NCBI GenBank assembly: GCA_030616165.1
Contig: JAUWXV010000001.1
Location: 17,843-81,842 of the forward strand
Length of the DNA: 64,000 bases
DNA from: a bacterium
GTDB taxonomy: Bacteria; SM23-31; JAUVVT01
Reading direction: 5' to 3'
The notes under the pieces were generated by a model. It was not told the origin of the DNA. It ran no database searches and was given only the letters and a program-made list of their open reading frames with translations. Position numbers and translations under genes: made by a program. This document shows positions 26,146 to 44,898 of this stretch, one piece after another; within the stretch, counting starts at the first letter, position 1; every line of letters begins with the position of its first letter.

Positions 26146-27603
26146 TCAACGAAATCCACCTCCTCCTCCACCCCCACCACCTCTACCTCGAGGACTTCCA
26201 AATCGAGGATTTACAACGTTGCTGTAAATAGACCCAAATGTGTATCTAAATCCCACTGAAACCATGTAGTCATATTGAGTGGCAAGTTGCCTCTGACGCA
26301 GCAAGATTTCCTCATCCGTTGCCTCCTCCATAGGTAATGATAATTGGTCATGAATCCAGGATACGTTTGCGAATATAGTTATGGAAAGTCCTTCAAAAAG
26401 GCGAAGGGATAAATTACTGCGTAATTCTAAACGCTTTTTCCTGAAATCGTGAAAGTAGTGTGAACCTTCCAATGTGGATGTCACAGAGCCCCATCTTTCC
26501 TTAACCTCATACGTAGCAGAAAGACTTTCATTAAATAAGTTCTCTCTGAGTTTTTCATAAACGGTTTCTTCGTCATAGCGAATGTTAGTATCGCCTATTC
26601 TGTAAAGAAAACGAAATTCCCTTCTCGTAGATTCAGCATAGGGGAACACATTGTATTCAATTGCAGGTGCCACACTGAAAGATAATTTAGTGTTAGCATA
26701 GATTGATGATAGTGCAGACCCATATCCTCCAATCGACCAATGTTCACCAAGACTTTTGACAATCAACCCCTGAAATCTCTGAGACCTTCTATAACTGAGA
26801 ATAGTACCGTCTTCTGTTACGTAACGGCCTTCATCATAGTCTGTGTCTATACCAAAGTTTATTTTCCAGTAAGGGGTTACACGGTCAATAGAAAAAGAGG
26901 CATCAATTGAATAGCTTTTTCTCTTCTCTTCTCCATTAGTGCGACCGCTGATATTGGTATTGAAAACCCAATAGTCCCACTTATCCACCACAGCAGTTGG
27001 CTCTGCCCTCAGCCTGTAATTAACAGAAATATAATCACCAAGCGGAGTTTTAGACACATAGCGTACCAAGCCCATCTTAAGAATCCGTACAAGCCCGCTC
27101 CGAATGATTTCCTGGGTATCTGCTTGTTTTGATACATACTTCAATGTATCGTTCATGCCGACAAAATTTTGCTGTCCGATGAGTGTTATTGTGTATTCCA
27201 TTCCTCCAGCGCCGGTCCTCTGCTGTGTTAGCATCACATAAACCTGCGCTTGTTTCCTGTCCCGAACATAATTCACGAAAGTAATCTCCCTTTTGACATG
27301 ATCTTGATAAAGACGCGATACGTCAAGGAAAATTTTTACGGCACTCTCTCGCAATGCTGTGGTATCACTTTTTGCTTCCTGAGAATAAGAGTGAGGAACC
27401 GAAATAAAACAAATCAAAAATAGTATGGCACCTAAATAAAGAAGGGTCAATGACAGGACAGTTTTAAAGCGAGAAATTGGTGCCGTCATTGAGGAAAATA
27501 CCATCAGAAAACGGTGTTTATAGTTTTTATTCATACAACTAAGTGAACGCTTTGGACCTCCGAACAATAAAAAACAAGATAAAATGCCAACAAATCGTTT
27601 CAT
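26146..27603 (-). CDS. predicted outer-membrane beta-barrel protein, paralog B, with C-terminal poly-Gly tail
   Basis: Same architecture as 24077-25489. Extra C-terminal SPRGRGGGGGGGGGFR encoded by a GGN repeat. Confidence 0.5.
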   Translation of the reverse strand: MKRFVGILSCFLLFGGPKRSLSCMNKNYKHRFLMVFSSMTAPISRFKTVLSLTLLYLGAILFLICFISVPHSYSQEAKSDTTALRESAVKIFLDVSRLYQDHVKREITFVNYVRDRKQAQVYVMLTQQRTGAGGMEYTITLIGQQNFVGMNDTLKYVSKQADTQEIIRSGLVRILKMGLVRYVSKTPLGDYISVNYRLRAEPTAVVDKWDYWVFNTNISGRTNGEEKRKSYSIDASFSIDRVTPYWKINFGIDTDYDEGRYVTEDGTILSYRRSQRFQGLIVKSLGEHWSIGGYGSALSSIYANTKLSFSVAPAIEYNVFPYAESTRREFRFLYRIGDTNIRYDEETVYEKLRENLFNESLSATYEVKERWGSVTSTLEGSHYFHDFRKKRLELRSNLSLRLFEGLSITIFANVSWIHDQLSLPMEEATDEEILLRQRQLATQYDYMVSVGFRYTFGSIYSNVVNPRFGSPRGRGGGGGGGGGFR

Positions 27604-30405: not shown

Positions 30406-30849
30406 ATGATGAAACTTTCTACAAAAGGACGATATGGCGCGAGGTTAATGTTGGACCTTGCCATACACTATGATGATGGATTTGTTTTGTTAAAGGATAT
30501 TGCTAAAAGGCAGGATATATCTGAAGGATATATGGAGCATCTTCTTCCTCATCTCAAGGCGGCAGGACTGATAAATTCATTGCGAGGTGCACGAGGTGGT
30601 TATAAACTGGCTAAAGCCCCTTCTGAAATATCTCTTAAAGAAGTAGTTCAATCTCTGGAAGGACCATTAACTCCAGCAGAATGTGTTGTTGCTCCTTCTG
30701 TTTGTAAGAGAGTTAGTTTTTGTGTTACACGGGATATATGGAAAGAAGTAGGAGAAAAAATCTCTCAGACTTTAGAATCAGTAACTCTGAAAGATATGGT
30801 TGAGATGCAAAAGAATAAAGGAAAGGCATCTCTCACATATAACATTTAA
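30406..30849 (+). CDS. Rrf2-family (IscR/CymR-like) transcriptional regulator with three-Cys cluster ligands
   Basis: [18 protein letters not shown] winged-helix N-terminus; C-x6-C-x5-C ([14 protein letters not shown]). Confidence 0.85.
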
Positions 30850-30874: not shown

Positions 30875-31711
30875 ATGAAAAGATTTATTAATGTTTCAGA
30901 AAAGCAGATTACAAGAGCGATTGTGAATGAATTTTGTAAGGATTTTCTTGATAATATCTACACAGAAGTTATCATTGTGGGTGCGGGGCCCAGTGGGCTT
31001 ATAGCTGGGAGAGAATTGGCAAAGGAAGGATTCAAAGTGCTAATTATAGAGGCTAACAACTATCTAGGTGGTGGCTTCTGGCTTGGTGGTTATTTGATGA
31101 ATGGACTTACGGTAAGAGAACCTGCGAATGAAGTGCTTGATGAATTAGCGATTCCTAATGAAAAAGTGGAAAAAGGCTTATATTTTGCAAATGGGCCCCA
31201 TGCTTGTTCAAAACTCATAGCTGCAACATGTGATGAGGGAGCAAAGATTTTGAATATGACTAAATTCGATGATGTTGTGCTCCGGGAAAATAATCGCGTA
31301 AGTGGGGTGGTAATTAATTGGACTCCAGTATCAAGTTTACCGAGGCAGATTACATGTGTGGACCCCGTTGCTCTTGAATCCAGAATTGTTATTGATGCTA
31401 CGGGACATGATGCGTGTGTAGCTAACTCCTTAGCACAGAGAAATCTACTTAAGATTAAAGGATTTGGGGGTATGTGGGTAGAAAAATCTGAGGATTTGGT
31501 GGTAGAAAAGACCGGTGAGGTTCACCCTGGCTTAATCGCTACGGGAATGGCTGTAGCAACTATCTTTGGAATCCCAAGAATGGGACCGACCTTTGGAGGA
31601 ATGCTGCTTTCAGGAAAGAAAGCTGCCGAGGAAGCAAAGAAACTGCTAACCAAGGAGAAAGTGGATTTAGAATCTTTAACTATTGAAATAAAAGAAGAAA
31701 TTGCAGTTTAA
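30875..31711 (+). CDS. Thi4-family thiazole synthase-like flavoprotein
   Basis: [28 protein letters not shown]...GGGFWLGG dinucleotide-binding motif typical of Thi4. Start at ATG 30875 with an AAGGAGG RBS. Confidence 0.65.
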
Positions 31712-31771: not shown

Positions 31772-32704
31772 ATGGCAAAGATAGCGGATGATATAACAAA
31801 ATTAATAGGGAATACCCCATTAGTCAGGCTAAACAGAATAGGAACTGGGTTAGAAGCGACTCTAATAGCTAAACTTGAAAGTTTTAATCCTTTATCGAGT
31901 GTGAAGGATAGGATTGGAGTTTCTATGATTGAAGAAGCAGAAAAGGAAGGATTTATTAAAAAGGATACAGTAATCATAGAACCTACCAGCGGCAACACCG
32001 GGATATCACTGGCTTTTGTCTGTGCAGCAAAGGATTATCGTTTAATATTAACGATGCCGGATACTTTTTCAATTGAACGCAGACAACTATTATCAGTATT
32101 TGGAGCAGAGGTTGTCTTAACCCCTGGTCAGGAAGGGATGCCGGGAGCGGTGAGAAAGGCAGAAGAACTTTTAGAGAATACTCCTAATTCTTTTATGCCG
32201 CAGCAATTTAAAAATCCTGCAAATCCAAAGATACATAGGGAAACCACTGCGGAAGAAATATGGCAGGATACGGATGGCAAGGTAGATATTTTGGTGAGTG
32301 GTGTAGGTACGGGTGGCACAATCACAGGAGTTGCTGAAGTAATAAAAGAAAGGAAACCTGAGTTTAAGGCAATTGCTGTTGAACCTATAGATTCGCCTGT
32401 TCTTTCGGGAGGGCAACCTGGTTCACATAAGATTCAGGGAATTGGAGCAGGATTTATACCCGATGTTTTGAGAATGGAACTGGTTGATGAAGTAATAAAA
32501 GTTACTAATGATGACGCCGGAGAGTTTGCAAGGAGATTGGCAAAAGAGGAGGGAATACTCGCAGGTATATCCTCTGGTGCTGCTGTACGTGCGGCAGTTG
32601 AGGTGGCAAAAAGAAAAGAAAACAAAGATAAACTTATTGTAGTCGTTTTACCGGATACTGGTGAGCGATATCTAACTACCTGGCTCTTCCAGGAGCTTTA
32701 TTAG
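31772..32704 (+). CDS. cysK: cysteine synthase A (O-acetylserine sulfhydrylase)
   Basis: [25 protein letters not shown] (PLP lysine region), [10 protein letters not shown]. Confidence 0.9.
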
Positions 32705-32741: not shown

Positions 32742-32963
32742 ATGGAGGATGACATAACAGGAGAACCAGAAATAAATGTTGATGAACTAAGAAAAAGTGG
32801 CGTAGTAAAACTAAAAGATAAAGATATGTTTTTCCTATGGATTAAAACAACGTGTTCTAATCTAAACTCAAAGTGGTTGAGGAAACTCGCTGATAATGTA
32901 AAAGAAGAACTTGGCGAAGTTTATTTATCATTAGACCGCTGTGATGTGAATAGGAAAAGATAG
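32742..32963 (+). CDS. small hypothetical protein
   Basis: 73-aa ORF between cysK and the sulfite reductase gene; no recognisable motif. Confidence 0.3.
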   Translation: MEDDITGEPEINVDELRKSGVVKLKDKDMFFLWIKTTCSNLNSKWLRKLADNVKEELGEVYLSLDRCDVNRKR

Positions 32964-33027: not shown

Positions 33028-33984
33028 TTGGACGTAGAACAGAAACGAGAAGCTCGCCGTTTGAAGTTGGATTTTGAGGCACTCAAAAGCGGGGGATTTA
33101 TCAAACAAACCCAGGAGAACCTCTTTACGGTGAGGTTGCGATGCCCAGGTGGGAAATTGACATCACGACAATTGCGGAAGGCTGCCGAGCTTGCTGAGAA
33201 GTATGGGAAAGGAGAGATTCATAATTCGGTTCGACAGTCAATAGAAATCCCTTATGTTCACTATCAGTACTTCGATGATATTACGGACGAACTGAAGGAA
33301 ATTGGTTGGTTGGTCGCATCTTGTGGCCCTCGCATAAGGGTGCCAACTGCATGTGCTGGATGCACATGGAACCCTAATGGTCTTATGGATTCACAGTTAA
33401 TGTGTCAGATGGTAGATAAACGATATTTTGGAAGAACCACAGGTCACCATAAATTTAAAATTTCCTTTTCTGGGTGTCCAATAGATTGTGCCCGAACCAG
33501 GGGGATGGACTTGGGCTTTCAAGGAATTGCTGAGCCAGAATTAGTAGAGGAATTATGTAACGGATGTGGACTCTGTATTTCAAGCTGTAGTGAAAATGCA
33601 CTTACCTTAGTGAATGACCTCCCTGTAAGGGATTGCAGTAAGTGTATCTATTGTGGTGATTGTATCAAAGTCTGTCCGATAGATGCTATAGTGGTGGGGA
33701 GGAAGGGATGGCTCGTTCGTGTGGGTGGTAAGCATGGTAAACACCCTATCTATGCCTATGAGGTAGCTAAGTTCGTTTCTGATGAGAAATGTTTCCTACT
33801 TATTGAGAAAACCATGGAATGGTACCAGGTCAATGGTGAAGGTAGAGAAAGAATCGGAACAGCAATTGTTCGGTTAGGTCTCTCCAAATACCTTGATGAA
33901 GTTGTAAAACCATTGAGTCTGGAGATTATCGATAAGTCTGAAGAGAGAAGAAAGTTCTGGACTGAAGGGAACCTGTATGTCTGA
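33028..33984 (+). CDS. small sulfite reductase (NIR_SIR ferredoxin-like and sirohaem domains plus inserted 2x[4Fe-4S] ferredoxin; AsrC/Dsr-like)
   Basis: TTG start 7 nt after AGGAGGAG. Sirohaem/FeS Cys pattern (TACAGC...SGCPIDCA). Two CxxCxxCxxxCP ferredoxin motifs (CNGCGLCISSC, CIYCGDCIKVCP). Confidence 0.7.
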   Translation: MDVEQKREARRLKLDFEALKSGGFIKQTQENLFTVRLRCPGGKLTSRQLRKAAELAEKYGKGEIHNSVRQSIEIPYVHYQYFDDITDELKEIGWLVASCGPRIRVPTACAGCTWNPNGLMDSQLMCQMVDKRYFGRTTGHHKFKISFSGCPIDCARTRGMDLGFQGIAEPELVEELCNGCGLCISSCSENALTLVNDLPVRDCSKCIYCGDCIKVCPIDAIVVGRKGWLVRVGGKHGKHPIYAYEVAKFVSDEKCFLLIEKTMEWYQVNGEGRERIGTAIVRLGLSKYLDEVVKPLSLEIIDKSEERRKFWTEGNLYV

Positions 33985-34051
33985 TGAAGTTGCATATTGA
34001 GCGAAATATAGCTAATGATTATTATTAGAAAATATAAAAGGATTGTTAAAA

Positions 34052-34777
34052 ATGGAAAATAAAATTGAGCATGCCAAAAGATTGATTGAAGAGGCAATAA
34101 AAAACTATCCAAGGGTGGGGGTAGCATGCTCTTTTGGGAAAGACAGTATAGTAACGGTTCATCTGGCAAGAGAGGTAGACCCAAATATAGAGGTTTTCTC
34201 AATAATGACCCAGTACAAACCAAAAGAAACTTTTGAGTACCTCAGGTTAATGAATAAAAAGATGAATCTTAGAATCACTGTTTATATGGTAGCTGATAGC
34301 GTTCCGGAGGCTCTTAAGGATGGTTCTCTAAAAGTAAGACTGTTACCAACTGATGAATTTCACCAAAGAACATCTGAAATAAAGACTCAAACCGGCAAAA
34401 AAATTTATGAAATAAATCCGGATGAATGCTGCCGACTACTTAAAGTAGAGCCGGCCAAAGTAGCTGTGAGCAATCTTGACGCTTGGATATGTGGCTTAAG
34501 AAACACTGAAGGCAGAATAAGAGAAAATTATCAGGAAGTAGAAAATAAGGGTGGGCTTATCAAGATAAACCCAATTCTAACATTTACCGAAGCCGAGATA
34601 TGGAGATATATAGCCACCAGAGGTATTGAACCACATACCTGGTATAGGAAAGGTTATCGGTCTCTCGGCTGTGCGCCTTGCTCGCGAGCAGGAGGAGAAC
34701 TTGAGCGAGACGGTAGATGGAAAGATACAAGCAAATGTGGAGGGGAGTGCGGCATACACACTCAAATATTAAAATGA
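34052..34777 (+). CDS. cysH: phosphoadenosine-phosphosulfate (APS/PAPS) reductase
   Basis: PP-loop SFGKDS and C-terminal ...CGGECGIH (the CysH ECG[LI]H hallmark). Confidence 0.8.
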   Translation: MENKIEHAKRLIEEAIKNYPRVGVACSFGKDSIVTVHLAREVDPNIEVFSIMTQYKPKETFEYLRLMNKKMNLRITVYMVADSVPEALKDGSLKVRLLPTDEFHQRTSEIKTQTGKKIYEINPDECCRLLKVEPAKVAVSNLDAWICGLRNTEGRIRENYQEVENKGGLIKINPILTFTEAEIWRYIATRGIEPHTWYRKGYRSLGCAPCSRAGGELERDGRWKDTSKCGGECGIHTQILK

Positions 34778-35994
34778 TAAATCAAGAAAAATATTCAGAA
34801 AACAGAAGACAGGGTAAAGAATTAGACCATCAATTAAGGGTCTATTCTGATATAACACAACTAATAGCCAGTCCACAGAATCCGACACCATTAGTTAGAT
34901 TAAATAGAATCAACCCTGATAAGGATTTTCAAATTTATATTAAACTGGAAAGATATAATCCATTTGGTTCAGTTAAAGATAGGATTGTTTATGAAATGCT
35001 AAAGGCATTGGAAGTAAGGGATAGAACAGTGGTTGAGCCATCATCGGGAAATACGGGGATTGCGTTAGCTTGTGTTGCCAATGCATTGGGAATACCGGTT
35101 GAGATTGCTGTTCCAGAGAGAATTCCTGATGAAAAAAAGGTAATGCTAAAATTTTTAGGGGCTAAGGTAACAGAAGCTGATGACGCACTGTGCCCTTTAT
35201 TTCCTACTGAAGGAGCCAGGGGTTTAGTAAACGCCTTGATAAAAAGCCCGGCTACTAAAAATAGCTATGTTAGCCCCAATCAATACGAGAATGAATTGAA
35301 TGTTCAAGCCCATTACCAAACCACGGGACCAGAAATATGGAAGCAAACACAAGGTAAAATCGATTATTTCTTTGCTGGATTTGGCACCTGTGGCACAATA
35401 ACTGGTGTCGGTAGATATCTCAAAGAGCAAAATCCAAAAATAAAGATTATTGGCGTAGAACCTTCTTCCCCCAACCATAAATTGCCCGGGATGAAGAGAA
35501 TAACCGGGTTAGATGAGGAGTTTATACCGAAAATTCTAGACCGCTCATTAATCGATGATATCGTATCAGTAACCGATGAAGAAGGTTATAGAACTGCTAT
35601 AAAATTAGCCAGAAAAGATGGAATTCCTGTTGGTCCTACCACGGGGGCTATACTTTGTATTGCCTTAAATTATGCCAAACTAAATAGAGGTTTAGCTGTT
35701 GTTATATCACCTGATGACGCATTCAAATACGCAAGTTACTACAAGGTTATCTTGGAAACAGGATTCAGAGAAATTAAGGAAAAAGAGTATGATTTGTGTG
35801 GTTTAGTTTGCCCTCTATCAAAGATAAAAGCGATAGAATTATTAGATAATCTTGGTGAAGGAGAAACTGCAAGAGTAATACTAGGAGATAGCGAATCTCT
35901 CAAAAGCGTGGTGCAAGAATTAAAAACCAGAGGAATAAAACCAGGTTTTGAACAAGAGAGCGAAAGTAGATTTATATTGACTATTACTATATGA
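34774..35994 (+). CDS. cysteine synthase (CysM/CysK-fold PLP enzyme) fused to a C-terminal TusA-like sulfur-carrier domain
   Basis: SSGNTGIALACV and GFGTCGTITG PLP-fold motifs. C-terminal about 75 aa with CGLVCPLSKIKAIELL resembles the TusA CPxP motif. ATGA overlap with cysH stop. Confidence 0.7.
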   Translation: MINQEKYSENRRQGKELDHQLRVYSDITQLIASPQNPTPLVRLNRINPDKDFQIYIKLERYNPFGSVKDRIVYEMLKALEVRDRTVVEPSSGNTGIALACVANALGIPVEIAVPERIPDEKKVMLKFLGAKVTEADDALCPLFPTEGARGLVNALIKSPATKNSYVSPNQYENELNVQAHYQTTGPEIWKQTQGKIDYFFAGFGTCGTITGVGRYLKEQNPKIKIIGVEPSSPNHKLPGMKRITGLDEEFIPKILDRSLIDDIVSVTDEEGYRTAIKLARKDGIPVGPTTGAILCIALNYAKLNRGLAVVISPDDAFKYASYYKVILETGFREIKEKEYDLCGLVCPLSKIKAIELLDNLGEGETARVILGDSESLKSVVQELKTRGIKPGFEQESESRFILTITI

Positions 35995-36050: not shown

Positions 36051-36278
36051 ATGGAAAGCCACAAAAGAAGCATCATAAAAGCTATTACTTGGCGGGTTAT
36101 TGCTTCTCTAATTATATTCGTAATTGCTTATTTATTTACAAAAGAAGTAGTATTATCAGTGGGTATAGGCATTTCCGATACAATTGTAAAAATTGTTACT
36201 TATTACTTTCATGAAAGGATGTGGAATAAAATAGATTTTGGAAGAGAGAAAAGAGATGAAGAAGATTATTCGATATAA
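36051..36278 (+). CDS. small two-helix membrane protein (DUF2061-like)
   Basis: KAITWRVIASLIIFVIAYLFT...ISDTIVKIVTYYFHERMWN. Confidence 0.4.
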   Translation: MESHKRSIIKAITWRVIASLIIFVIAYLFTKEVVLSVGIGISDTIVKIVTYYFHERMWNKIDFGREKRDEEDYSI

Positions 36279-36332: not shown

Positions 36333-37001
36333 ATGAGAAGTCTTATGTTTAAGACATTGAAGGAAGATATTCAAACAGTTTTCAGTAAAGACCCGGCTGC
36401 CAAAAGCGTGATAGAGGTTATCTTTTGCTATCCTGGACTCCATGCCATTTGGATGAATAAAATTGCACATTTCTTCTGGATGCATAAGTTTCTCTTTATT
36501 GGAAGGTATATTTCCCATGTTAATCGCTGGCTGACGGGGATTGAGATTCACCCGGGAGCAAAGATTGGGAGAAGATTTTTTATTGACCATGGAATGGGAG
36601 TAGTAATAGGAGAAACTGCCGAGATTGGTGATGATGTTTTGCTTTATCAGGGCGTGGTTTTAGGTGGCAGAAGTTTCGAAAAGAAGAAACGGCATCCTAC
36701 TCTCGGAGATAATGTTGTTGTTGGAGCAGGGGCTGTTATTTTAGGTCCAGTAAATATCGGGGAAGGTGCAAAAATAGGGGCAGGGAGTGTGATACTTCAG
36801 GATGTTCCTTCGGGTGCAACAGCAGTTGGTGTTCCAGGGAAGATTAAAATGGGATTATCAGCTAAATTGATGGAGGATTTGGAACATGGGAAAATACCAG
36901 ACCCTATTTTCAGTACTATTCAGTTTATGATAGAGGAACAGGAAAAACTTGCAAAAAGGGTAAAAGTGTTAGAGTCTCAAGGCAGCAACTTTTCGAATTA
37001 G
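36333..37001 (+). CDS. cysE: serine O-acetyltransferase
   Basis: N-terminal SATase helical domain plus hexapeptide region [44 protein letters not shown]. Confidence 0.9.
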
Positions 37002-37248: not shown

Positions 37249-38430
37249 ATGAAAGATAAATTGAAATCGTCAACCAGGTGTGTTCACTATGGTGAGAATA
37301 GAAAAGAACCGTATTATTCTGTTATCACACCAATTGTCAATTCGGCTCCATATAGATTTAGTTCCAGCAAAGAATTATTGGATTTTGTTACAGGTAAATC
37401 ATCAAGAACCCAGCCAGAATATGGGCGAATGGGAAATCCCACGGTTACATCCGTTCAGGAAAAACTTGCAAGGTTAGAGGGTGGGAAAAATGCACTGCTT
37501 TTTGCAAGTGGAATGTGTGCAATTACGACAGCATTATTTGTACTTTTGAAAAAGGGTGATCATATTGTCATAACCAATGATTCATACCGTCGGACAAGAG
37601 ACTTTGTTTTAAATTTTCTTCCAAAGTTCGGGATTAAATCAACAATAACAAAATCGACTTCATCTGATATTAAGAAAGCATTAAGGAAAACAACAAAAAT
37701 AATCTTTTCAGAATCCCCGACAAATCCTTACCTTCATGTTTTAGATTTGAAAGCAATTGCTGATATTGGAAAGCAGAATAATATTATAACTATTATAGAC
37801 AGCACTCTTGCCACTCCTGTAAACCAGAAGCCATTACAATATGGGATTGACCTTGTCATACACTCGGCTACAAAGTATTTGGGAGGGCATAACGACCTGA
37901 TTGCAGGCGTTTTAATTGGTTCAGATAAACTGGTTCAGCCGATTGCTGAATTATTAATGACCATAGGAGGTATTTGTGACCCCAATACGTCGTATTTAAT
38001 CGAAAGAGGTTTAAAAACGCTCGATTTGCGAGTAAAAAGACATAATGAAAATGGGCAAAAAGTAGCACAATTTCTTGAGAAGCATCCAAAAGTTTTAAAG
38101 GTTTTTTATCCGGGTTTAAAAAGCCATCCAGACCATAAGATTGCAAAACGTCAAATGAAAGGATTTGGAGGATTACTTTCTTTTTTACTCCAAACCGATT
38201 TTAAGGGAGCAATGAAATTTATTGATAGCTTAACAATTCCCCAGATTGCTCCAAGTTTTGGTGGACCCGAATCGCTTATTGAACAACCTGCGCTGATGTC
38301 TTTTATGGATATCAAAAAAAAGGAAAGGGAGAGAATAGGAGTTTTTGATAATTTAGTACGATTATCTCTCGGTCTTGAGGACAGTGAAGATATCATCGAA
38401 GACCTGAAGAGAGGTCTGGAAAAACTATAG
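37249..38430 (+). CDS. Cys/Met-metabolism PLP enzyme (cystathionine gamma-synthase/beta-lyase/O-acetylhomoserine sulfhydrylase family)
   Basis: IHSATKYLGGHNDLIAGVL (PLP-lysine motif), NPT N-terminal motif. Confidence 0.85.
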   Translation: MKDKLKSSTRCVHYGENRKEPYYSVITPIVNSAPYRFSSSKELLDFVTGKSSRTQPEYGRMGNPTVTSVQEKLARLEGGKNALLFASGMCAITTALFVLLKKGDHIVITNDSYRRTRDFVLNFLPKFGIKSTITKSTSSDIKKALRKTTKIIFSESPTNPYLHVLDLKAIADIGKQNNIITIIDSTLATPVNQKPLQYGIDLVIHSATKYLGGHNDLIAGVLIGSDKLVQPIAELLMTIGGICDPNTSYLIERGLKTLDLRVKRHNENGQKVAQFLEKHPKVLKVFYPGLKSHPDHKIAKRQMKGFGGLLSFLLQTDFKGAMKFIDSLTIPQIAPSFGGPESLIEQPALMSFMDIKKKERERIGVFDNLVRLSLGLEDSEDIIEDLKRGLEKL

Positions 38431-38653: not shown

Positions 38654-41254
38654 ATGGACTTATTTTTACAAGATGGGGCGAGGGTAGGAATTATAGGTGG
38701 GGGTCCCTCTGGGAGTTTTACGGCTATTCATTTATTGAGCATTGCAGCTTCGCTTAACAAAAAAATTAAGGTATTCATCTTTGATAAAAAAGATTTTACA
38801 TCTGGTTTAGGGTGTAATTTTTGTGCAGGCATTCTTTCTAATACACTAATTAAAGAGTTAGTCCAATATAATATTATTATCCCGCCAGAGATAATCCAAA
38901 GAGAGATTAAAGGATACTATTACGAGACGAGAGAGGGGACAGCATATTTCCCAAAGCCATCTACTTCATCAATTTTCAGTGTGTTCCGAGCAAATGGACC
39001 TTGCAGCTCAAAAGAATTATATAACGTTAGTTTTGACTATTTTCTTCTACAAGAAGCGATTAAAAGGGGAGCAAACAAAATAGACACCAATATCAATGAA
39101 GTCATTTTTCCTTCCACTCCACAGGATCGAGTATCACTTTACTCACAGGAGCAAAATACATATTATGAATTTGAACTGGTATTCGGTGCATTTGGAATAA
39201 ATACTCCTTTTATTAAAGAATTAGAAAAATCAGGAATCGGATACAAAGCCCCAAAATACCTGCATTCTGGTCAGGCTGAGATCCCCTACGATATATCTTT
39301 GAATAAAAAGTTTCATGACAATGTCACTGTTTTTCTTATTCCTCTCAGGAATTTATACTTCTTTTCCTTTACACCAAAAGCAGAGTATTTAACGGTTACC
39401 GCTATTGGTCCTCATGTTACAAAAGCAATGCTGGAGGAAATATTTACCATTCCGCAGGTTATGAAATATTTTCCAGACAAATGGCAGTTCCCATTGGAGT
39501 ATTGTCACTGTCATCCAAGAATATCTGTTACTATTGCGGAAAATTTCTTCTATCACCGTTTTGTGGTTGTCGGAGATGCTTGTTGGTCAAGGTATCTCAA
39601 GGATGGTATTGCATCTGCATTTTATACCTCAAAATTCGGAGTTGAATGTGCTTTCAAATATGGGATTTCACGTAATGCGTTCCGGGACAGATACTTTAGG
39701 GAAATTACTCGGATGGATAAAGATAATACTGTAGGAAAAATTTTATTTAAAATCCATAATAGATTGAAAAGGTCGCAGACTGTGCGGGGCTCTCTTTTTT
39801 CGATGACCAGAGATTACTATCATAAAACAATTCAGGAAAATGTACGATATATCCTATGGGGTTTATTTACAGGTGATTACTCTTATAAGAAGATAATGAG
39901 AAAATCTTTTAGGATTTCATTTATCGTGCCCTTTATTATAAATATTATTAATGCATACCTGAAGATTATCTTTAATAATCTGTCAAAAATTAATAAAAAA
40001 ACAAAATTAAGACCAATAAAAAATCAGAGCAGTAATGTAACAGTGTCAAATTTAGTAAACGGAGATACAATTATTGTTATTGGTGGGGGACCAGCAGGCA
40101 CTTCTTGTGCAATACATGCAAAAAAACTTGCTGTAAATAATAATATAGACTTGTCAGTCATATTAATCGAACCTAAAACTTTTAGCATACATTACAATCA
40201 GTGTGTTGGTGTTCTTTCCCCTAGGATAAAACAATTGATGGGAGATATAGGTATAGACTTCCCGGAACATTTAATTCAAACAAAAATTCCAGGGTATTAT
40301 TTGAATGCAAATGGTGAAGAAATATATCTTCCTTCTGATAAACATAACGATATTGGACTTGCTTTAAGGCGGAATGAGTTTGATGCTTTTATGATAGAGC
40401 AGGCTTTGCGGAACGGAGTACAAGTTGTCCGGGGAGAAGTTGTGACATTCGATTATTCAAAAAATGACAAAAAGAATAAATTCATTGTTTATTGCAATTC
40501 CGGCACTTATAAGTGCAATTTTATTGTAGGTGCTTTTGGTGTCGGGAATGGGATTGCCCTTGATTTTTTTAAAACTTTCCGGTACCGACCTCCACATATT
40601 CTTCAATCAATTGTTTCCAAAATTCATCCTCTGGATAATTTATATATTGATGAAATTTTTGGAAATAATATCCATACTTATCTCCCTAAATATAAAGCAA
40701 TTGAATTTGGAGCAATAACTCCAAAGGGCAACCATTTAACAGTCAATATCGCCGGTGAAAAAATCAGTTTTAAAGATATGGAATATTTTCTAATGATAGA
40801 TGAAGTAAAAAAATGGATTCCCCCCCATAAAGAACGAACTTACTTTAAAGGTCAATTCCCAACAAGTCCTGCACATCGATTCTATGGAGATAATTACTTG
40901 ATCATAGGTGATGCGGCTGGTTTAGTTCGGCCATTTAAAGGAAAAGGTGTAAATTCAGCAATTCTCTCAGGTAAAATTGCTGCTGAAACTATCGTGAATT
41001 ATGGCACAACGGCTCTTGCAATAAAACGAAACTTTGTACAACATCCACAGATACAAAAAATATTAATCGATTATAAATATGGAAAAATTATAAGAAAATT
41101 AACTATTCAGGCTTCACATCATAATCTTTTAAAATATATAATTAATTATGCAAAAAGAAATAAAACGTTCGAAACCGCTCTATATAATGCTGTCTCTGCT
41201 AACAGACTTTATAAGGATATTATTTTATGTACTTTAAGAAACTTAGTGAGTTAA
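38654..41254 (+). CDS. internally duplicated FAD-dependent oxidoreductase (two geranylgeranyl-reductase-like halves)
   Basis: Two GxGxxG dinucleotide motifs (VGIIGGGPSGSFTA at residue 10; IIVIGGGPAGTSCA at about residue 470), separated by a hydrophobic linker. Confidence 0.6.
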   Translation: MDLFLQDGARVGIIGGGPSGSFTAIHLLSIAASLNKKIKVFIFDKKDFTSGLGCNFCAGILSNTLIKELVQYNIIIPPEIIQREIKGYYYETREGTAYFPKPSTSSIFSVFRANGPCSSKELYNVSFDYFLLQEAIKRGANKIDTNINEVIFPSTPQDRVSLYSQEQNTYYEFELVFGAFGINTPFIKELEKSGIGYKAPKYLHSGQAEIPYDISLNKKFHDNVTVFLIPLRNLYFFSFTPKAEYLTVTAIGPHVTKAMLEEIFTIPQVMKYFPDKWQFPLEYCHCHPRISVTIAENFFYHRFVVVGDACWSRYLKDGIASAFYTSKFGVECAFKYGISRNAFRDRYFREITRMDKDNTVGKILFKIHNRLKRSQTVRGSLFSMTRDYYHKTIQENVRYILWGLFTGDYSYKKIMRKSFRISFIVPFIINIINAYLKIIFNNLSKINKKTKLRPIKNQSSNVTVSNLVNGDTIIVIGGGPAGTSCAIHAKKLAVNNNIDLSVILIEPKTFSIHYNQCVGVLSPRIKQLMGDIGIDFPEHLIQTKIPGYYLNANGEEIYLPSDKHNDIGLALRRNEFDAFMIEQALRNGVQVVRGEVVTFDYSKNDKKNKFIVYCNSGTYKCNFIVGAFGVGNGIALDFFKTFRYRPPHILQSIVSKIHPLDNLYIDEIFGNNIHTYLPKYKAIEFGAITPKGNHLTVNIAGEKISFKDMEYFLMIDEVKKWIPPHKERTYFKGQFPTSPAHRFYGDNYLIIGDAAGLVRPFKGKGVNSAILSGKIAAETIVNYGTTALAIKRNFVQHPQIQKILIDYKYGKIIRKLTIQASHHNLLKYIINYAKRNKTFETALYNAVSANRLYKDIILCTLRNLVS

Positions 41255-41320: not shown

Positions 41321-42829
41321 ATGACAAGGAAATTGCCACCCTTATTGTTAAATCCTATTAGTTTAATAGGGATTCTTATTGCTTTGACCAGTTTCATTGC
41401 CATTATAATTCTCTTTTTTGCTCATATTTTTTTAGCACCTGATAATCCATATATTGGAATAGTCACTTACCTGATTTTCCCAATCTTTTTAATAATAGGA
41501 TTACTTATAATTCCCTTCGGTATGTTTATTGAGAGACGGCAACAATTAAAAAGAAAAGGAATAAAAGAACGGCGTCTTCCAATTATCGATTTTAACCAGC
41601 AAGATCAGAGAAACGCTTTTATACTCTTTTTGATAGTTTTAATTATTTTTATGATATTGAGTGCTGTTGGAAGTTACAGAGCTTATGTTTTCACCGATTC
41701 AGTAGTTTTTTGTGGGAAAATCTGCCATTCTATAATGCATCCTGAATATATTACTTACATGGAGAGCCCTCATGCCCGGGTGTCATGTGCTGAGTGTCAT
41801 GTTGGAACAGGAGCCAACTGGTATGCCAAATCAAAGCTTTCCGGTGCATATCAGGTTTATGCTACAATAGCACAAAAATATCCTAAGCCTATTCCAACAC
41901 CTATCAAAAATTTACGACCAGCTCAGGAAACCTGTGAGCAGTGTCACTGGCCAGGGCAATTTTTTGGTGGGAAACAGAAAATATTTACTTATTATTTAAG
42001 TGATGAAGAAAACACCAAGTATGAAATTAATATGTTAATGAAGGTTGGTGGCGGAAATCCAAAATCCAGTAGAACTTCGGGTATTCACTGGCATATGAAT
42101 ATTCAGAATAAGATAGAATTTATATCAACGGATAATAAAAACAAAATTATTCCTTGGATTCGTTCTACTAACCTATTAACTGGGGAAGTAAAAACATTTA
42201 CTGATGAAGAGAACCCACTATCAGAAGAATTATTGTCAAAGAGTAAGCCTCATGTAATGGATTGTATGGATTGTCATAACCGACCAACTCATATCTTTAA
42301 GTCTCCAAGTCTTTCCGTTAATGAAAAAATTCTATTAAATCGAATTAATAAATCATTACCTGAGGTTAAATATATATCTGTTGAACTTCTTTCAGATGAT
42401 TATGAAACAACTGATATTGCAGTGAACACAATTGCCGAAGAGATTTGGAAATTTTACAGAGAAAATTATCCCAAGGTTTTTGAAAAGGAAAGGGATAGTA
42501 TAAAACAATCAATCAGAGAATTGCAGGAGATTTATCAGAGGAATATTTTTCCAGAAATGGGTGTAAAGTGGTCAGTTTATCCTGACCACATTGGACATCT
42601 TGATTTCCCGGGTTGTTATAGATGTCATGATAATAAACATATTACGGAATACGGAGACCGACTGGCGAATGATTGTAATCAATGTCACACAATTTTGTCG
42701 CAGGAGTTTGGAGGCGAAAAAGAAGAGACTCTCGACCCAAAAGGAATAAAATTTAAACATCCAGTTGATATTGGAGATGACTGGAAATTAGTAGGATGCC
42801 ATGAATGTCATACAGGATTAAATCCTTAA
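41321..42829 (+). CDS. inner-membrane heptahaem c-type cytochrome, ImcH-like (NapC/NirT-related quinol dehydrogenase)
   Basis: Three N-terminal TM helices. Seven haem motifs (CGKICH, CAECH, CEQCH, CMDCH, CYRCH, CNQCH, CHECH). Confidence 0.7.
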   Translation: MTRKLPPLLLNPISLIGILIALTSFIAIIILFFAHIFLAPDNPYIGIVTYLIFPIFLIIGLLIIPFGMFIERRQQLKRKGIKERRLPIIDFNQQDQRNAFILFLIVLIIFMILSAVGSYRAYVFTDSVVFCGKICHSIMHPEYITYMESPHARVSCAECHVGTGANWYAKSKLSGAYQVYATIAQKYPKPIPTPIKNLRPAQETCEQCHWPGQFFGGKQKIFTYYLSDEENTKYEINMLMKVGGGNPKSSRTSGIHWHMNIQNKIEFISTDNKNKIIPWIRSTNLLTGEVKTFTDEENPLSEELLSKSKPHVMDCMDCHNRPTHIFKSPSLSVNEKILLNRINKSLPEVKYISVELLSDDYETTDIAVNTIAEEIWKFYRENYPKVFEKERDSIKQSIRELQEIYQRNIFPEMGVKWSVYPDHIGHLDFPGCYRCHDNKHITEYGDRLANDCNQCHTILSQEFGGEKEETLDPKGIKFKHPVDIGDDWKLVGCHECHTGLNP

Positions 42830-42910
42830 AGCAAGTTTTAATAAAAATATAATTTACAATTTTTTATAAATATTATATATCGGACTCGATGTTTATCTGT
42901 CAATTAGATT

Positions 42911-44137: not shown

Positions 44138-44139
44138 AA

Positions 44140-44898
44140 TTATCTCACTTCCCCATCCAAGTTAGCGTAATAAATTTTTGGTTCCGTATTAAGATGAGGT
44201 TTCAGAACCTGGACTTTGTTGAAACGCATGAATCGGGCTAATAGGCTGCTGCGCAAACCGATCTCGCCAAATATCCTCGCTTCGGTTGGACAAACTTCAA
44301 CACAAGCGGGCTTTAGACCCCGGGATAAACGATGATAGCAGAATGTACATTTTTCCGCCGTACTGGTCACAGGGTTAAGAAACCTTGCTCCGTACGGACA
44401 TGCCTGAATACAATAACGACACCCGAGGCAGTAATCTTTATCGATCAATATCACTCCATCCTTAGTGATAAATGTAGCACCTACCGGACATACCTGCACG
44501 CATGGTGGATTAGCACACTGGTTGCACAATTTTGGCACAAAGAAGGTCCGCATGATCTCATTTTCGGCAACCATTTCAGGAAAACCCTCACTTCCCCCAT
44601 TTGGGCTATCAACCTGTGCTGTCCCATCAATAAGAATTATGTACCGCTCAACCCAAGTCCGGAAAAAGAATGGTTCACGAGGTACATCATTTTCCCGCTT
44701 ACATGCATCTACACACTGTCCACAACCGATGCACTTGTCGACCTGAATTCCCATCCCGTATTGATGTATTGGTTCATTATCATTTGATGAATCAGAATCT
44801 TCTGAAGCAGGAGACCCGAATAATAACAGTACGGTTCCTACAAGTGTGCTTTCCCGTAGAAACTCTCGGCGATTCATCAATTCACGTTTCTTTTTCAT
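44140..44898 (-). CDS. Tat-exported 4x[4Fe-4S] ferredoxin subunit (NrfC/PsrB/DsrO-like)
   Basis: MKKKRELMNRREFLRESTLVG Tat signal. Four CxxCxxCxxxCP clusters. Start set at ATG 44898 (ATGA overlap with the upstream cytochrome stop). Confidence 0.85.
   Translation of the reverse strand: MKKKRELMNRREFLRESTLVGTVLLLFGSPASEDSDSSNDNEPIHQYGMGIQVDKCIGCGQCVDACKRENDVPREPFFFRTWVERYIILIDGTAQVDSPNGGSEGFPEMVAENEIMRTFFVPKLCNQCANPPCVQVCPVGATFITKDGVILIDKDYCLGCRYCIQACPYGARFLNPVTSTAEKCTFCYHRLSRGLKPACVEVCPTEARIFGEIGLRSSLLARFMRFNKVQVLKPHLNTEPKIYYANLDGEVR

What the first reader, a model, noticed from the sequence alone, without database searches (positions are those of the whole stretch)
34774..35994. Cysteine-synthase-fold enzyme fused to a TusA-like sulfur-carrier domain, translationally coupled to cysH
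The PLP domain (SSGNTGIALAC, GTCGTITG) is followed by about 75 residues containing CGLVCPLSKIKAIELL, reminiscent of the TusA CPxP active site. Such a fusion would deliver persulfide or thiocarboxylate sulfur directly to a CysM-type synthase, analogous to CysO-CysM but on a TusA scaffold. It uses an ATGA overlap with cysH.
Basis: inference. Interest (0 to 1): 0.5.

Follow-up and report, generated by a model that had tools for sequence, protein, structure and literature searches.

The report
Cysteine synthase paralog carrying TusA sulfur-carrier
A second cysteine-synthase-like enzyme in a Dehalococcoidia sulfur-assimilation operon really is fused to a TusA sulfur-carrier domain, and relatives in several phyla pair the same enzyme type with TusA, rhodanese or DsrE, which suggests an untested route that makes cysteine from protein-bound sulfur rather than free sulfide.

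Summary
ORF 34774..35994 (+) encodes 406 aa: a PLP fold-type II CysK/CysM-family domain (Pfam PALP, 228 bits) and a C-terminal TusA domain (PF01206, 36-39 bits against a cut-off of 28.6). An AF2 model of the tail has the beta-alpha-beta-alpha-beta-beta fold and superposes on YeeD and TusA structures. The ATG overlaps the cysH stop as ATGA.

The fusion is neither unique nor fixed. Of 32 related genome loci, 20 are fused and 12 split into adjacent, often ATGA-overlapping genes, and the two states are interleaved on the tree. Three Dehalococcoidales relatives carry a rhodanese at the same junction. Planctomycetota put the same CPL[NS]-type TusA on the C-terminus of the upstream sulfite reductase. 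Woeseiaceae and a Neomarinimicrobiota MAG place DsrE2 and TusA, and in three Woeseiaceae loci a rhodanese, beside the unfused ortholog.

The PLP domain belongs to a distinct subfamily. It has an inserted loop with an invariant Cys140, and an acidic D-E-E where CysK has G-A-G and CysM has R-R-W.

Best reading (about 0.5): TusA Cys346 carries sulfane sulfur to the synthase, in parallel with the sulfide-using CysK of the same operon. This is a new variant of a known kind, and it is untested biochemically.

The parts
34774..35994 (+). PALP-TusA fusion gene (406 aa plus stop). The ATG overlaps the cysH stop as ATGA.
   Evidence: Identical to database protein P0001 and 70-97% identical to more than 120 PALP+TusA proteins.
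34876..35691 (+). PLP fold-type II (CysK/CysM-family) domain, residues 35-306. Key residues: Schiff-base Lys68 (34975-34977), SSGNTG 90-95, Gln170, GTC206GT, TT289-290.
   Evidence: Pfam PALP 228.5 bits. TIGR01136 cysKM 268.9 bits, below its cut-off of 344. Alignment with E. coli CysK and CysM. Foldseek matches to OASS structures.
35179..35223 (+). Subfamily-specific inserted loop 'DDALC140PLFPTEGARG' (residues 136-150; Cys140 codon at 35191-35193). It is absent from CysK and CysM.
   Evidence: Cys140 is invariant in 84 fused proteins. It is also present in unfused Planctomycetota and Gammaproteobacteria orthologs and in more distant D-x-L-C-P relatives. pLDDT is below 50 at residues 141-144, so the loop is probably flexible.
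35512..35520 (+). Asp247-Glu248-Glu249, aligned with CysK Gly230-Ala231-Gly232, the segment the cited review equates with CysM Arg210-Arg211-Trp212 and says sets the size of the sulfur donor.
   Evidence: Gap-free alignment with E. coli CysK. Equivalence to CysM and role of the segment from PMC9547175; the MAFFT alignment itself puts the CysM triplet about three columns upstream.
35737..35781 (+). Inter-domain linker, residues 322-336. In split relatives this is where a stop codon and a new ATG occur.
   Evidence: pLDDT below 50 at residues 332-335. Junction analysis of 32 loci.
35782..35988 (+). TusA-type sulfur-carrier domain, residues 337-405. The candidate active Cys346 (35809-35811) lies in a C-P-L-S motif at the N-terminus of helix 1.
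   Evidence: PF01206 at 35.8 and 39.4 bits. Cys346 conserved in 99% of 120 homologs and Pro347 in 100%. AF2 and Foldseek matches to YeeD and TusA. Alignment with E. coli TusA and TsuB.
34043..34777 (+). cysH (sulfonucleotide reductase). It has CC...CxxC...ECGIH cysteines, which I recognise from my own knowledge as the APS-reductase type.
   Evidence: PF01507 138.9 bits; NF002537 165.9 bits, above its cut-off of 154. The overlap with the downstream gene recurs in relatives.
33028..33984 (+). Small siroheme-type sulfite reductase (318 aa) with a 2x[4Fe-4S] ferredoxin insert.
   Evidence: NIR_SIR 83.6 bits, NIR_SIR_ferr 66.8 bits, Fer4. A sulfite-reductase-like gene lies within about 5 kb upstream of the PALP gene in almost all Dehalococcoidia-type loci that have enough upstream flank (two such loci gave no hit).
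31772..32704 (+). Canonical cysK, a sulfide-dependent O-acetylserine sulfhydrylase. It is 37% identical to the PLP domain of the fusion.
   Evidence: TIGR01139 cysK 475 bits, above its cut-off of 351. Alignment.
30406..30849 (+). Rrf2-family regulator at the head of the gene cluster.
   Evidence: Recognised by me as Rrf2-type from its translation; no family search was run on it. Homologous ORFs at about 50% identity lie upstream of the cluster in many related loci.
36051..36278 (+). DUF2061 small membrane protein, recurrently next to cysH or the PALP-TusA gene.
   Evidence: PF09834 69.6 bits. Synteny.
36333..37001 (+). Probable cysE (serine acetyltransferase).
   Evidence: Named from its translation and my own knowledge; no family search was run on it. 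Homologous ORFs at 59-65% identity lie downstream in relatives.
37249..38430 (+). Cystathionine gamma-synthase / methionine gamma-lyase family PLP enzyme.
   Evidence: NF006097 377 bits and TIGR01328 371 bits, both below their cut-offs. Conserved downstream in relatives.

Best explanation
The gene encodes a two-module enzyme. The N-terminal module is an intact but divergent CysK/CysM-family PLP beta-replacement enzyme. It should form the usual aminoacrylate intermediate from O-acetyl- or O-phospho-serine. The C-terminal module is a TusA-type carrier whose Cys346 holds sulfane sulfur as a persulfide, or possibly as a thiosulfonate.

I propose that the carrier is the dedicated sulfur donor of this synthase. 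Cys346-S-S(-) attacks the aminoacrylate, probably across the homodimer. Cysteine is then released by thiol-disulfide exchange or reduction, and the subfamily-invariant Cys140 in the inserted loop is a candidate resolving residue. Alternatively, the persulfide is reduced at the mouth of the active site.

This would give the operon a second route into cysteine that uses protein-bound sulfur, alongside the free-sulfide route of the co-encoded CysK. The co-encoded sulfite reductase deals with sulfite, whether that sulfite comes from cysH or is left after a thiosulfate-type donor gives up its sulfane sulfur.

Shown: the domain identities, the catalytic residues, the conservation of the cysteines, the fusion/split/swap pattern and the gene neighbourhoods.
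Inferred: the direction of sulfur flow, the chemical species carried, the role of Cys140 and the source that loads TusA.
For: 1. Both modules look functional. Lys68, the Asn loop, Gln170 and the phosphate loop are present. The TusA fold and the Cys at the helix-1 N-terminus are present. Cys346 is 99% conserved and the tail has 67-78% mean column identity, so it is under constraint.

2. The two modules behave as an obligate pair. Of 32 genome loci, 20 are fused and 12 split. Each split form has its own ATG, and four of them overlap as ATGA. Many stand-alone 70-72 aa TusA proteins exist (the 120 best hits listed) that are 67-84% identical to the tail. Fused and split states are interleaved on the PLP-domain tree.

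3. The carrier module can be swapped. Dehalococcoidales L027, L035 and L036 have PLP domains 74-79% identical to the window's, fused at the same junction to a rhodanese with a catalytic-loop Cys. A large actinobacterial PALP-rhodanese family shares the D-x-L-C-P insertion.

4. Unfused orthologs sit beside sulfurtransferases in other phyla:
- Planctomycetota: a sulfite reductase with a C-terminal CPLN-type TusA lies directly upstream in 6 of 6 loci.
- Woeseiaceae: DsrE2, TusA, a Mo-type sulfite-oxidase-like enzyme, (rhodanese) and then PALP, as a full set in 6 loci and partly visible in a seventh, short contig.
- A Neomarinimicrobiota MAG: PALP, DsrE2, TusA.

5. The subfamily differs from CysK and CysM exactly at the active-site entrance: an inserted loop with invariant Cys140, and D-E-E in the donor-specificity segment. 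This fits a macromolecular donor rather than a small one.

6. No ThiS, JAB or E1 gene lies in the 64-kb window or near three other fused loci, so a CysO-like intermediate carrier is not encoded locally.

7. TusA-family cysteines are known to carry persulfide and -S-SO3 forms (PMC11073785; PMC4175335, abstract).
Against: - There is no biochemical evidence for any member, and I found no paper on this architecture.
- The model coordinates and PAE were not available, so I could not check whether Cys346 can reach the PLP site or where Cys140 lies. The linker is short (about 15 residues).
- A persulfide attack yields a mixed disulfide that needs a reductant, and no dedicated reductase was identified in the operon.
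- The operon already holds a complete sulfite-to-sulfide-to-CysK route, so a carrier route is not obviously needed.
- In Planctomycetota the TusA sits on the sulfite reductase and the cluster has ThiS, E1 and JAB. Many Dehalococcoidia loci have an E1-like gene. Both facts favour a thiocarboxylate relay.
- The source that loads TusA is unknown. No YeeE, CysPUWA, TauE or PF03601 homolog was found in the window.
- One fused locus (L022) lies in an unrelated context.
Confidence: 0.5

Rival explanations
1. Thiocarboxylate relay of the CysO-CysM or HcyS-MetY type. TusA acts like the rhodanese domain of MoeZ. It passes persulfide sulfur to an E1-adenylated ThiS-like carrier encoded elsewhere, and that carrier's thiocarboxylate is the real substrate of the PLP domain.
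For: - Planctomycetota orthologs lie in clusters of MetY-like, ThiS (GGG plus a short tail), E1 without rhodanese, JAB, sulfite reductase-TusA and PALP genes.
- Iyer et al. 2006 describe this neighbourhood type and predict a rhodanese-like role for SirA/TusA (PMC1779556).
- At least 14 Dehalococcoidia loci have a 336-aa MoeB/ThiF-family E1 between Rrf2 and cysK.
- MoeZR rhodanese sulfurates CysO in mycobacteria (PMC3227635, listed).
Against: - No ThiS, JAB or E1 was found in the 64-kb window or within 10 kb of the gene in L086, L087 and L088.
- A ThiS HMM hits only the Planctomycetota loci.
- This model does not explain why TusA is tethered to the synthase rather than to the E1.
- M. tuberculosis CysM is not among the 60 best PDB sequence matches.
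- The rhodanese-fused actinobacterial relative has no ThiS or JAB neighbour.
Confidence: 0.2
2. Thiosulfate / S-sulfocysteine route. The PLP domain condenses thiosulfate with O-acetylserine to give S-sulfocysteine, as CysM does. TusA Cys346 then acts downstream as the thiol that strips off the sulfonate group as sulfite. Sulfite reductase reduces that sulfite to sulfide for CysK.
For: - The tail is structurally closest to YeeD/TsuB, the thiosulfate-handling TusA relative. YeeD carries -S-SO3 and persulfide forms and decomposes thiosulfate.
- The model explains why two cysteine synthases, a sulfite reductase and TusA are encoded together, and why TusA can be tethered to either enzyme.
- Aerobic Woeseiaceae pair the ortholog with a sulfite-oxidase-like enzyme and a rhodanese.
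Against: - The segment where CysM has Arg210, which the cited review says most likely binds thiosulfate, is acidic (D-E-E) here. That argues against a dianionic donor.
- No thiosulfate transporter homolog is present in the window.
- The window's context, and the sulfonate-type ABC transporter and arylsulfotransferase in L039, point to sulfate or sulfonate rather than thiosulfate.
Confidence: 0.15
3. Sulfur mobilisation in the reverse direction. The PLP domain acts as a cysteine or cystine desulfhydrase that loads TusA Cys346 with sulfane sulfur for cofactor or tRNA thiolation pathways.
For: - TusA classically receives sulfur from a desulfurase (the IscS-TusA complex 3lvj is among the fold matches).
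- The operon or its relatives include sulfur-consuming enzymes: Thi4 in the window, a ThiF-like E1 in relatives, and MnmA 4.5 kb downstream in L039.
- CysK-family enzymes can run beta-elimination (my own knowledge).
Against: - The context is assimilatory: cysH, sulfite reductase, cysE and cysK.
- Fold-type II elimination yields sulfide, not a persulfide, unless cystine is the substrate.
- The model does not explain the constant link with sulfite-processing enzymes.
Confidence: 0.1
4. The TusA domain is not a sulfur carrier here. It serves as a regulatory, redox-sensing or docking module, for example one that binds sulfite reductase or modulates the synthase.
For: The canonical CPxP motif is altered to CPLS. 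One homolog (P0096) has Tyr in place of the Cys. Pfam scores are only moderately above the cut-off.
Against: Cys346 and Pro347 are conserved in 99-100% of homologs. The module is swapped for a catalytically competent rhodanese. DsrE2 and canonical TusA sit beside orthologs in other phyla.
Confidence: 0.05

Closest known systems
M. tuberculosis CysO-CysM-Mec-MoeZ pathway (protein-thiocarboxylate-dependent cysteine synthesis)
   Same: A CysK/CysM-family PLP enzyme that takes sulfur from a small dedicated carrier protein instead of free sulfide. A persulfide-carrying sulfurtransferase module takes part. Unfused orthologs of the window enzyme in Planctomycetota sit in ThiS/E1/JAB clusters.
   Different: The carrier here is a TusA fold with a Cys side chain, not a beta-grasp protein with a Gly-Gly thiocarboxylate. 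No ThiS, JAB or E1 is present in the window. The PLP domain is not close to M. tuberculosis CysM. It has its own Cys140 loop and a D-E-E segment.
Sulfur-assimilation neighbourhoods with SirA/CCD1 ('type 4e' of Iyer, Burroughs and Aravind 2006, PMC1779556), including the Wolinella HcyS-HcyF-HcyD-Sir-MetY system (Krishnamoorthy and Begley 2011, cited in PMC5764234)
   Same: A SirA/TusA-type protein is encoded with sulfite reductase, PAPS/APS reductase and a sulfhydrylase. It was predicted to stand in for rhodanese as the sulfur donor. The Planctomycetota loci fit this type.
   Different: In the window the ThiS, JAB and E1 parts are missing and TusA is fused to a cysteine-synthase paralog. In the text passages I read, that paper does not mention a SirA fusion to cysteine synthase or to sulfite reductase; it does report ThiS fused to sulfite reductase. 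Details of the Wolinella pathway rest on my memory because the paper was not held.
E. coli CysM with the YeeE/YeeD (TsuA/TsuB) thiosulfate route
   Same: A second OASS isoform alongside CysK. A TusA-family protein whose single Cys handles thiosulfate-derived sulfur. YeeD is the best structural match of the tail (PMC11073785).
   Different: No YeeE homolog is present in the window. The CysM Arg210-Arg211-Trp212 segment is D-E-E here. NCBIfam cysM scores 245 bits against a cut-off of 394.
TusA / DsrE / rhodanese sulfur relays of sulfur oxidisers (for example DsrE3A-TusA, PMC4175335)
   Same: The same carrier families occur next to orthologs of this synthase (DsrE2-TusA in Woeseiaceae and in a Neomarinimicrobiota MAG). 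They too are linked to a sulfite-converting enzyme.
   Different: Those relays feed dissimilatory oxidation through Dsr or sHdr. Here the apparent end point is a biosynthetic PLP enzyme.
PALP-rhodanese fusion proteins of Actinobacteria (JGI name 'cysteine synthase/rhodanese-related sulfurtransferase')
   Same: The same D-x-L-C-P CysK/CysM subfamily with a C-terminal persulfide-carrier domain. The same swap occurs inside Dehalococcoidales.
   Different: The carrier fold differs, the PLP domains are only about 38-45% identical, and the gene context differs. As far as my searches show, this family is also uncharacterised.

Membership tests
CysK/CysM O-acetylserine sulfhydrylase family (fold-type II PLP) | Pfam PALP domain above the gathering score | tested here: met
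   228.5 bits against a cut-off of 35
CysK/CysM O-acetylserine sulfhydrylase family (fold-type II PLP) | Schiff-base Lys in S-V-K-D-R, (T/S)SGNTG substrate loop, active-site Gln, G-T-x-G-T phosphate loop | tested here: met
   Lys68, SSGNTG 90-95, Gln170 and GTC206GT all align with E. coli CysK and CysM
CysK/CysM O-acetylserine sulfhydrylase family (fold-type II PLP) | Score above the curated NCBIfam cut-off for cysKM, cysK or cysM | tested here: not met
   cysKM 268.9 (cut-off 344), cysM 245 (394), cysK 242.7 (351). It is a family member by fold and residues, but not an equivalog of either isoform.
CysK/CysM O-acetylserine sulfhydrylase family (fold-type II PLP) | Donor-specificity segment: small G-A-G in CysK or R-R-W plus a 3-residue insertion in CysM | tested here: not met
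   D247-E248-E249 in the CysK register with no insertion
CysK/CysM O-acetylserine sulfhydrylase family (fold-type II PLP) | Cysteine formation from OAS or OPS and a sulfur donor | not testable with these tools
   Needs an enzyme assay
TusA/SirA family (PF01206) | Profile score above the gathering cut-off | tested here: met
   35.8 bits in the whole protein and 39.4 bits on the tail, against 28.6. Some homologs fall just below, for example P0121 at 26.3 bits.
TusA/SirA family (PF01206) | Two-layer beta-alpha-beta-alpha-beta-beta fold | tested here: met
   AF2 tail model with pLDDT 91.8. Foldseek TMq 0.78-0.86 to YeeD, 3hz7 and E. coli TusA.
TusA/SirA family (PF01206) | Conserved Cys at the N-terminus of helix 1 | tested here: met
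   Cys346 is conserved in 99% of homologs and aligns with the Cys of E. coli TusA and TsuB
TusA/SirA family (PF01206) | Strict C-P-x-P motif | tested here: not met
   C-P-L-S here (Ser349 conserved in 99%) and C-P-L-N in the Planctomycetota sulfite reductase-TusA fusions. Canonical relatives have C-P-x-P.
TusA/SirA family (PF01206) | Carries a persulfide or thiosulfonate on the Cys | not testable with these tools
   Needs mass spectrometry
CysO-CysM type thiocarboxylate system | ThiS-like carrier with a Gly-Gly C-terminus encoded with the synthase | tested here: not met
   No hit in the window by tblastn or by a ThiS HMM. Found only in the Planctomycetota loci.
CysO-CysM type thiocarboxylate system | JAB (Mec-type) peptidase and an E1-like adenylyltransferase nearby | tested here: not met
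   Neither is in the 64-kb window. An E1-like gene is present in at least 14 related Dehalococcoidia loci, but JAB is in none of them.
YeeE/YeeD (TsuAB) thiosulfate uptake pair | A YeeE-type membrane partner encoded next to the TusA-like protein | tested here: not met
   No tblastn hit of E. coli TsuA in the window

The most novel reading that the evidence does not exclude
Sulfide-free assimilation. The sulfite reductase does not release sulfide. Instead it hands a partly reduced, zero-valent sulfur to TusA Cys346, as DsrAB does to DsrC. The resulting protein persulfide is consumed directly by the tethered PLP enzyme, and Cys140 resolves the mixed disulfide. The floating TusA module, found on the reductase in Planctomycetota and on the synthase in Dehalococcoidia, would then be an assimilatory counterpart of DsrC, and this enzyme subfamily would be a protein-persulfide-dependent cysteine synthase.
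Probability: 0.12. Interest if true: 0.8.

Novelty: new variant of a known kind. Interest (0 to 1): 0.55.

Why it matters
Cysteine synthesis is the entry point of sulfur into biomass. Textbook routes use free sulfide (CysK), thiosulfate (CysM) or, in actinobacteria, a protein thiocarboxylate (CysO).

This finding points to a distinct and widespread CysK/CysM subfamily, seen in Chloroflexota, Planctomycetota, Gammaproteobacteria, Actinobacteria and a Neomarinimicrobiota MAG. It is repeatedly tethered to, or encoded beside, persulfide carriers (TusA, rhodanese, DsrE2) and sulfite-converting enzymes. If the carrier is the donor, this would be a fourth, protein-persulfide-dependent way to make cysteine. 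That is relevant to abundant sediment and subsurface Dehalococcoidia, which live with sulfide, polysulfide and thiosulfate.

The idea is directly testable with one recombinant protein and three point mutants. The natural fused, split and swapped variants provide ready-made controls.

Tried and rejected
- **Single-sequence PDB search with the tail.** The top hits were designer PPR repeat proteins made of many sub-threshold repeats. I rejected them as spurious. The profile search and the fold search gave TusA-family hits instead.
- **'CysM-type' assignment.** I first read K241/R242 as the equivalents of CysM Arg210/Arg211. I dropped this after checking the register against E. coli CysK and the review's structural equivalence. 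The higher target-normalised TM-score to CysM may only reflect the shorter chain, so I do not use it.
- **Local CysO-like system.** tblastn with Planctomycetota ThiS, ThiF and JAB and a ThiS HMM found nothing in the window.
- **Thiosulfate, sulfate and sulfite transporters in the window** (TsuA, CysPUA, CysZ, TauE, PF03601). No hits.
- **Inter-domain geometry.** Model coordinates and PAE are not exposed, so distances between Cys346, the PLP site and Cys140 could not be measured.
- **Resources that were unavailable.** The afdb50 fold search was not installed. The exact-sequence contig look-up for the window protein found nothing on record. The Wolinella paper PMC3089676 is not held.
- **Literature.** Six of the nine searches run targeted the fusion or its carrier-synthase pairing, and they found no paper describing a PALP-TusA or PALP-rhodanese cysteine synthase. 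Most subscription journals are not covered.
- **Cysteate synthase reading.** NCBIfam CapA scores 178 bits against a cut-off of 600. I did not pursue it.


Full report
**1. The observation.** ORF 34774..35994 (+) is real. Two further in-frame ATGs (34717, 34735) lie inside the upstream gene. The 34774 start agrees with relatives whose gene is not preceded by cysH, for example L001, which begins 'MNQDSF...'.

The upstream gene is a CysH-family sulfonucleotide reductase: PF01507 at 139 bits and NF002537 at 166 bits against a cut-off of 154. Its CC...CxxC...ECGIH cysteines are, from my own knowledge, those of the Fe-S type APS reductases.

The product is 406 aa. Pfam finds PALP at residues 35-306 (228.5 bits) and TusA (PF01206) at residues 337-405. 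TusA scores 35.8 bits in the whole protein and 39.4 bits on the isolated tail, against a gathering score of 28.6.

**2. The TusA domain is genuine.**
- An AF2 model of the tail, built on 52 homologs, has pLDDT 91.8 and the beta-alpha-beta-alpha-beta-beta order.
- Its best PDB fold matches are YeeD/TsuB in the YeeE-YeeD structures (TMq 0.85-0.86, rmsd 1.4 A), the SirA-like protein 3hz7 (0.80) and E. coli TusA (3lvj 0.80; 1dcj 0.78).
- In the full-length model (pLDDT 83, pTM 0.72), Cys346 sits immediately before helix 348-358, the position of the active Cys in TusA.
- Cys346 and Pro347 are conserved in 99-100% of 120 homologs. The neighbouring Cys342 is conserved in only 65%.
- The motif is C-P-L-S rather than the canonical C-P-x-P of E. 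coli TusA, TsuB, 3hz7 and TM0983.
- A single-sequence PDB search gave only spurious designer-repeat hits. A profile of the tail gave weak but correctly aligned TusA-family hits.

**3. The PLP domain is intact but is neither CysK nor CysM.** Lys68 (SVKDR), SSGNTG 90-95, Gln170 and the GTC206GT loop align with E. coli CysK and CysM. The best solved relatives are plant and bacterial OASS at about 36-38% identity. NCBIfam scores for cysKM, cysM and cysK (269, 245 and 243 bits) are all below their cut-offs. The gene at 31772..32704 in the same operon is a canonical cysK (475 bits against 351) and is only 37% identical.

Two features set this subfamily apart:
- **An inserted loop.** A four-residue insertion creates 'DDALC140PLFPTEGARG'. 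Cys140 is invariant in 84 fused proteins. It is also present in unfused orthologs and in more distant D-x-L-C-P relatives. The loop has low pLDDT.
- **An acidic specificity segment.** One review singles out a segment as deciding the size of the sulfur donor: CysK Gly230-Ala231-Gly232 and CysM Arg210-Arg211-Trp212 (PMC9547175). Here it is Asp247-Glu248-Glu249, in a gap-free CysK register.

I first took K241/R242 for the CysM arginines and withdrew that. By secondary-structure order, the Cys140 loop lies between strand 131-135 and helix 147-157. From memory, this is the movable N-terminal subdomain at the active-site entrance of OASS. I could not check this in three dimensions because coordinates are not exposed.

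**4. How common is the fusion, and is it fixed?** More than 120 database clusters at 70-97% identity carry PALP plus TusA. Sources name them 'pyridoxal-phosphate dependent enzyme', 'cysM 1' or 'cysteine synthase/TusA-related sulfurtransferase', from Chloroflexota and Dehalococcoidales MAGs. At 50% clustering the family collapses to one full-length representative, so it is one tight clade.

In one genome per species, matches covering both domains are almost all Dehalococcoidia, including a complete Dehalogenimonas MAG. A few have odd bin labels.

The fusion is polymorphic. Of 32 loci holding both parts, 20 are fused and 12 are split into adjacent genes. Each split gene has its own ATG exactly at the start of the TusA domain, and four overlap as ATGA. 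In Dehalogenimonas the TusA gene has an AAGGAGG sequence about 8 nt upstream of its ATG and overlaps the synthase gene by 11 nt. A profile search with the tail returned 399 proteins, and its 120 best hits are stand-alone TusA proteins, almost all 70-78 aa long and 67-84% identical to the tail. On a neighbour-joining tree of the PLP domain, fused and split forms are interleaved. This implies repeated fusion and fission, although some splits could be assembly frameshifts.

**5. The carrier module is exchangeable.** Three Dehalococcoidales loci (L027, L035, L036) have PLP domains 74-79% identical to the window's. They continue after the same 'FYKDVLEAE' junction into a single-domain rhodanese (64-66 bits) with a C-x-x-G-E-R-S loop.

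A large actinobacterial family (Propionicimonas, Micropruina, Cellulomonas, Microbacterium) has the same PALP-rhodanese design and shares the D-x-L-C-P insertion. One member has no ThiS, JAB or E1 neighbour.

**6. Unfused orthologs also keep sulfurtransferase company.**
- **Planctomycetota.** All six loci have a 740-770 aa sulfite reductase whose C-terminus is a TusA domain with a C-P-L-N motif, directly upstream of the 62-68% identical unfused PALP gene. cysK follows in four of them. Further upstream lie MetY-like, ThiS-like (GGG plus a short tail), E1 without rhodanese, JAB and C92 peptidase genes.
- **Woeseiaceae.** Six loci have DsrE2, canonical TusA, (PF03601), a Mo-type sulfite-oxidase-like enzyme, a 135-aa ORF, (rhodanese) and then PALP; a seventh, short contig shows part of the same set.
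- **A Neomarinimicrobiota MAG.** It has PALP, DsrE2, TusA, YCII and a YgaP-like TM protein.
- **Other Gammaproteobacteria.** L061 shows no such context.

**7. The window's operon.** On the + strand the order is:
1. an Rrf2-type regulator (my reading of its translation; no family search was run on it)
2. a sulfide-dependent thiazole synthase Thi4 (245 bits)
3. cysK
4. a 73-aa ORF
5. a small sulfite reductase with a ferredoxin insert
6. cysH
7. the PALP-TusA gene
8. DUF2061
9. a probable cysE (also my reading of the translation)
10. a cystathionine gamma-synthase family enzyme

. The core of this order (sulfite reductase, cysH, PALP-TusA, DUF2061) recurs across Dehalococcoidia loci, with cysK, cysE and the gamma-synthase gene in varying positions. 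At least 14 loci have a 336-aa MoeB/ThiF-family E1 at the position of Thi4.

No ThiS, E1 or JAB is detectable in the window, and the same holds within 10 kb in L086, L087 and L088. No YeeE, CysPUA, CysZ, TauE or PF03601 homolog is in the window, although L087 and L088 have TauE and PF03601 between cysH and the fusion gene. One fused locus (L022) is in an unrelated context.

**8. Interpretation.** A TusA module alternates between fused and adjacent states, is replaced by rhodanese, and travels with DsrE2. This behaviour fits a persulfide-type carrier partnered with this synthase subfamily. It does not fit a passive tail. TusA-family cysteines carry persulfide and thiosulfonate forms (PMC11073785; PMC4175335).

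I therefore favour (about 0.5) direct delivery of sulfane sulfur from Cys346 to the aminoacrylate of the PLP domain. Cys140 would be a possible resolving thiol, and the acidic entrance would be a docking surface for the lysine-rich helix after Cys346 (K350, K352). Those last two points are inference only. The constant neighbour, a sulfite-converting enzyme (a reductase in anaerobes and an oxidase-like enzyme in Woeseiaceae), suggests that sulfite is a co-substrate or by-product of the pathway.

The main rival (0.2) is the thiocarboxylate relay predicted for SirA-containing assimilation clusters by Iyer et al. 2006 (PMC1779556) and known from CysO-CysM (PMC3227635). It fits the Planctomycetota but lacks its carrier in the window. 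The other rivals are an S-sulfocysteine route (0.15), reverse sulfur mobilisation (0.1) and a non-carrier role (0.05).

**9. Novelty and limits.** The architecture is in public databases under generic names, and I found no paper describing it. The library lacks most subscription journals. Conceptually it is a new variant of carrier-dependent cysteine synthesis.

Nothing here shows catalysis, the species carried or the direction of flow. The domain geometry could not be measured. The afdb50 library was unavailable.

Noticed in passing
window 32742..32963 (+): This 73-aa ORF between cysK and the sulfite reductase is 39-49% identical to the N-terminus of the first subunit of a two-gene (A/B-like) small sulfite reductase found in other loci (L003, L004, L013, L029, L030, L034, L037). 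It looks like a relic of that subunit in a genome that now has the single 318-aa form.
   Followed up: partly
window 30875..31711 (+): A sulfide-dependent thiazole synthase Thi4 (TIGR00292, 245 bits) sits between Rrf2 and cysK. At least 14 related loci have a 336-aa MoeB/ThiF-family E1 (PRK12475-like) at that position and carry Thi4 further downstream.
   Followed up: partly
window 36051..36278 (+); also L002, L005, L023, L042, L047, L086: A DUF2061 two-helix membrane protein is repeatedly encoded next to cysH or the PALP(-TusA) gene in Dehalococcoidia, and in one Planctomycetota locus (L042) and one unclassified bacterial locus (L047). This suggests an unrecognised role in sulfur assimilation.
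   Followed up: partly
window 41321..45764 (both strands) and 46553..47626: A module of multihaem cytochromes c, a 4Fe-4S protein and an NrfD-like membrane subunit lies next to a cytochrome b gene. A similar cytochrome / Fer4 / NrfD module lies just downstream of the PALP-TusA gene in L087 and L088.
   Followed up: partly
window 38654..41254 (+): An 866-aa protein with two geranylgeranyl-reductase-like FAD regions (the second matching TIGR02032 at residues 473-780, the first more weakly) directly follows the sulfur operon.
   Followed up: no
window 24077..25489 (-) and 26146..27603 (-): Two long ORFs (470 and 485 aa) have no Pfam match at E <= 1e-5.
   Followed up: no
L040, L042, L044, L049, L051, L065 (for example L051 3769..5979): Planctomycetota encode ferredoxin-type sulfite reductases of about 740-770 aa with a C-terminal TusA domain that carries a C-P-L-N motif. 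Where the upstream flank is held (four loci), they sit in MetY / ThiS / E1 / JAB clusters; a C92 peptidase gene is present in five of the six. In the literature I could search, I found no description of a sulfite reductase-TusA fusion.
   Followed up: partly
L067 1758..6951 and L063, L072-L075, L079: Woeseiaceae have a conserved cluster: DsrE2, TusA, (PF03601 transporter-like), a Mo-cofactor sulfite-oxidase-like enzyme, a 135-aa ORF, (rhodanese), and then the unfused ortholog of the window's PLP enzyme.
   Followed up: partly
L027 797..2077, L035 4819..6132, L036 946..2289; P0137 and P0391-P0509: PALP-rhodanese fusion proteins occur in Dehalococcoidales at the same junction as the TusA fusion. 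They also form a large actinobacterial family that shares the D-x-L-C-P loop.
   Followed up: partly
L039 1823..5950: In Dehalogenimonas sp. XYDCF, an NMT1/SsuA-like ABC transporter and an arylsulfotransferase lie between the sulfite reductase and the split PALP and TusA genes. An MnmA tRNA thiouridylase gene lies 4.5 kb downstream.
   Followed up: no
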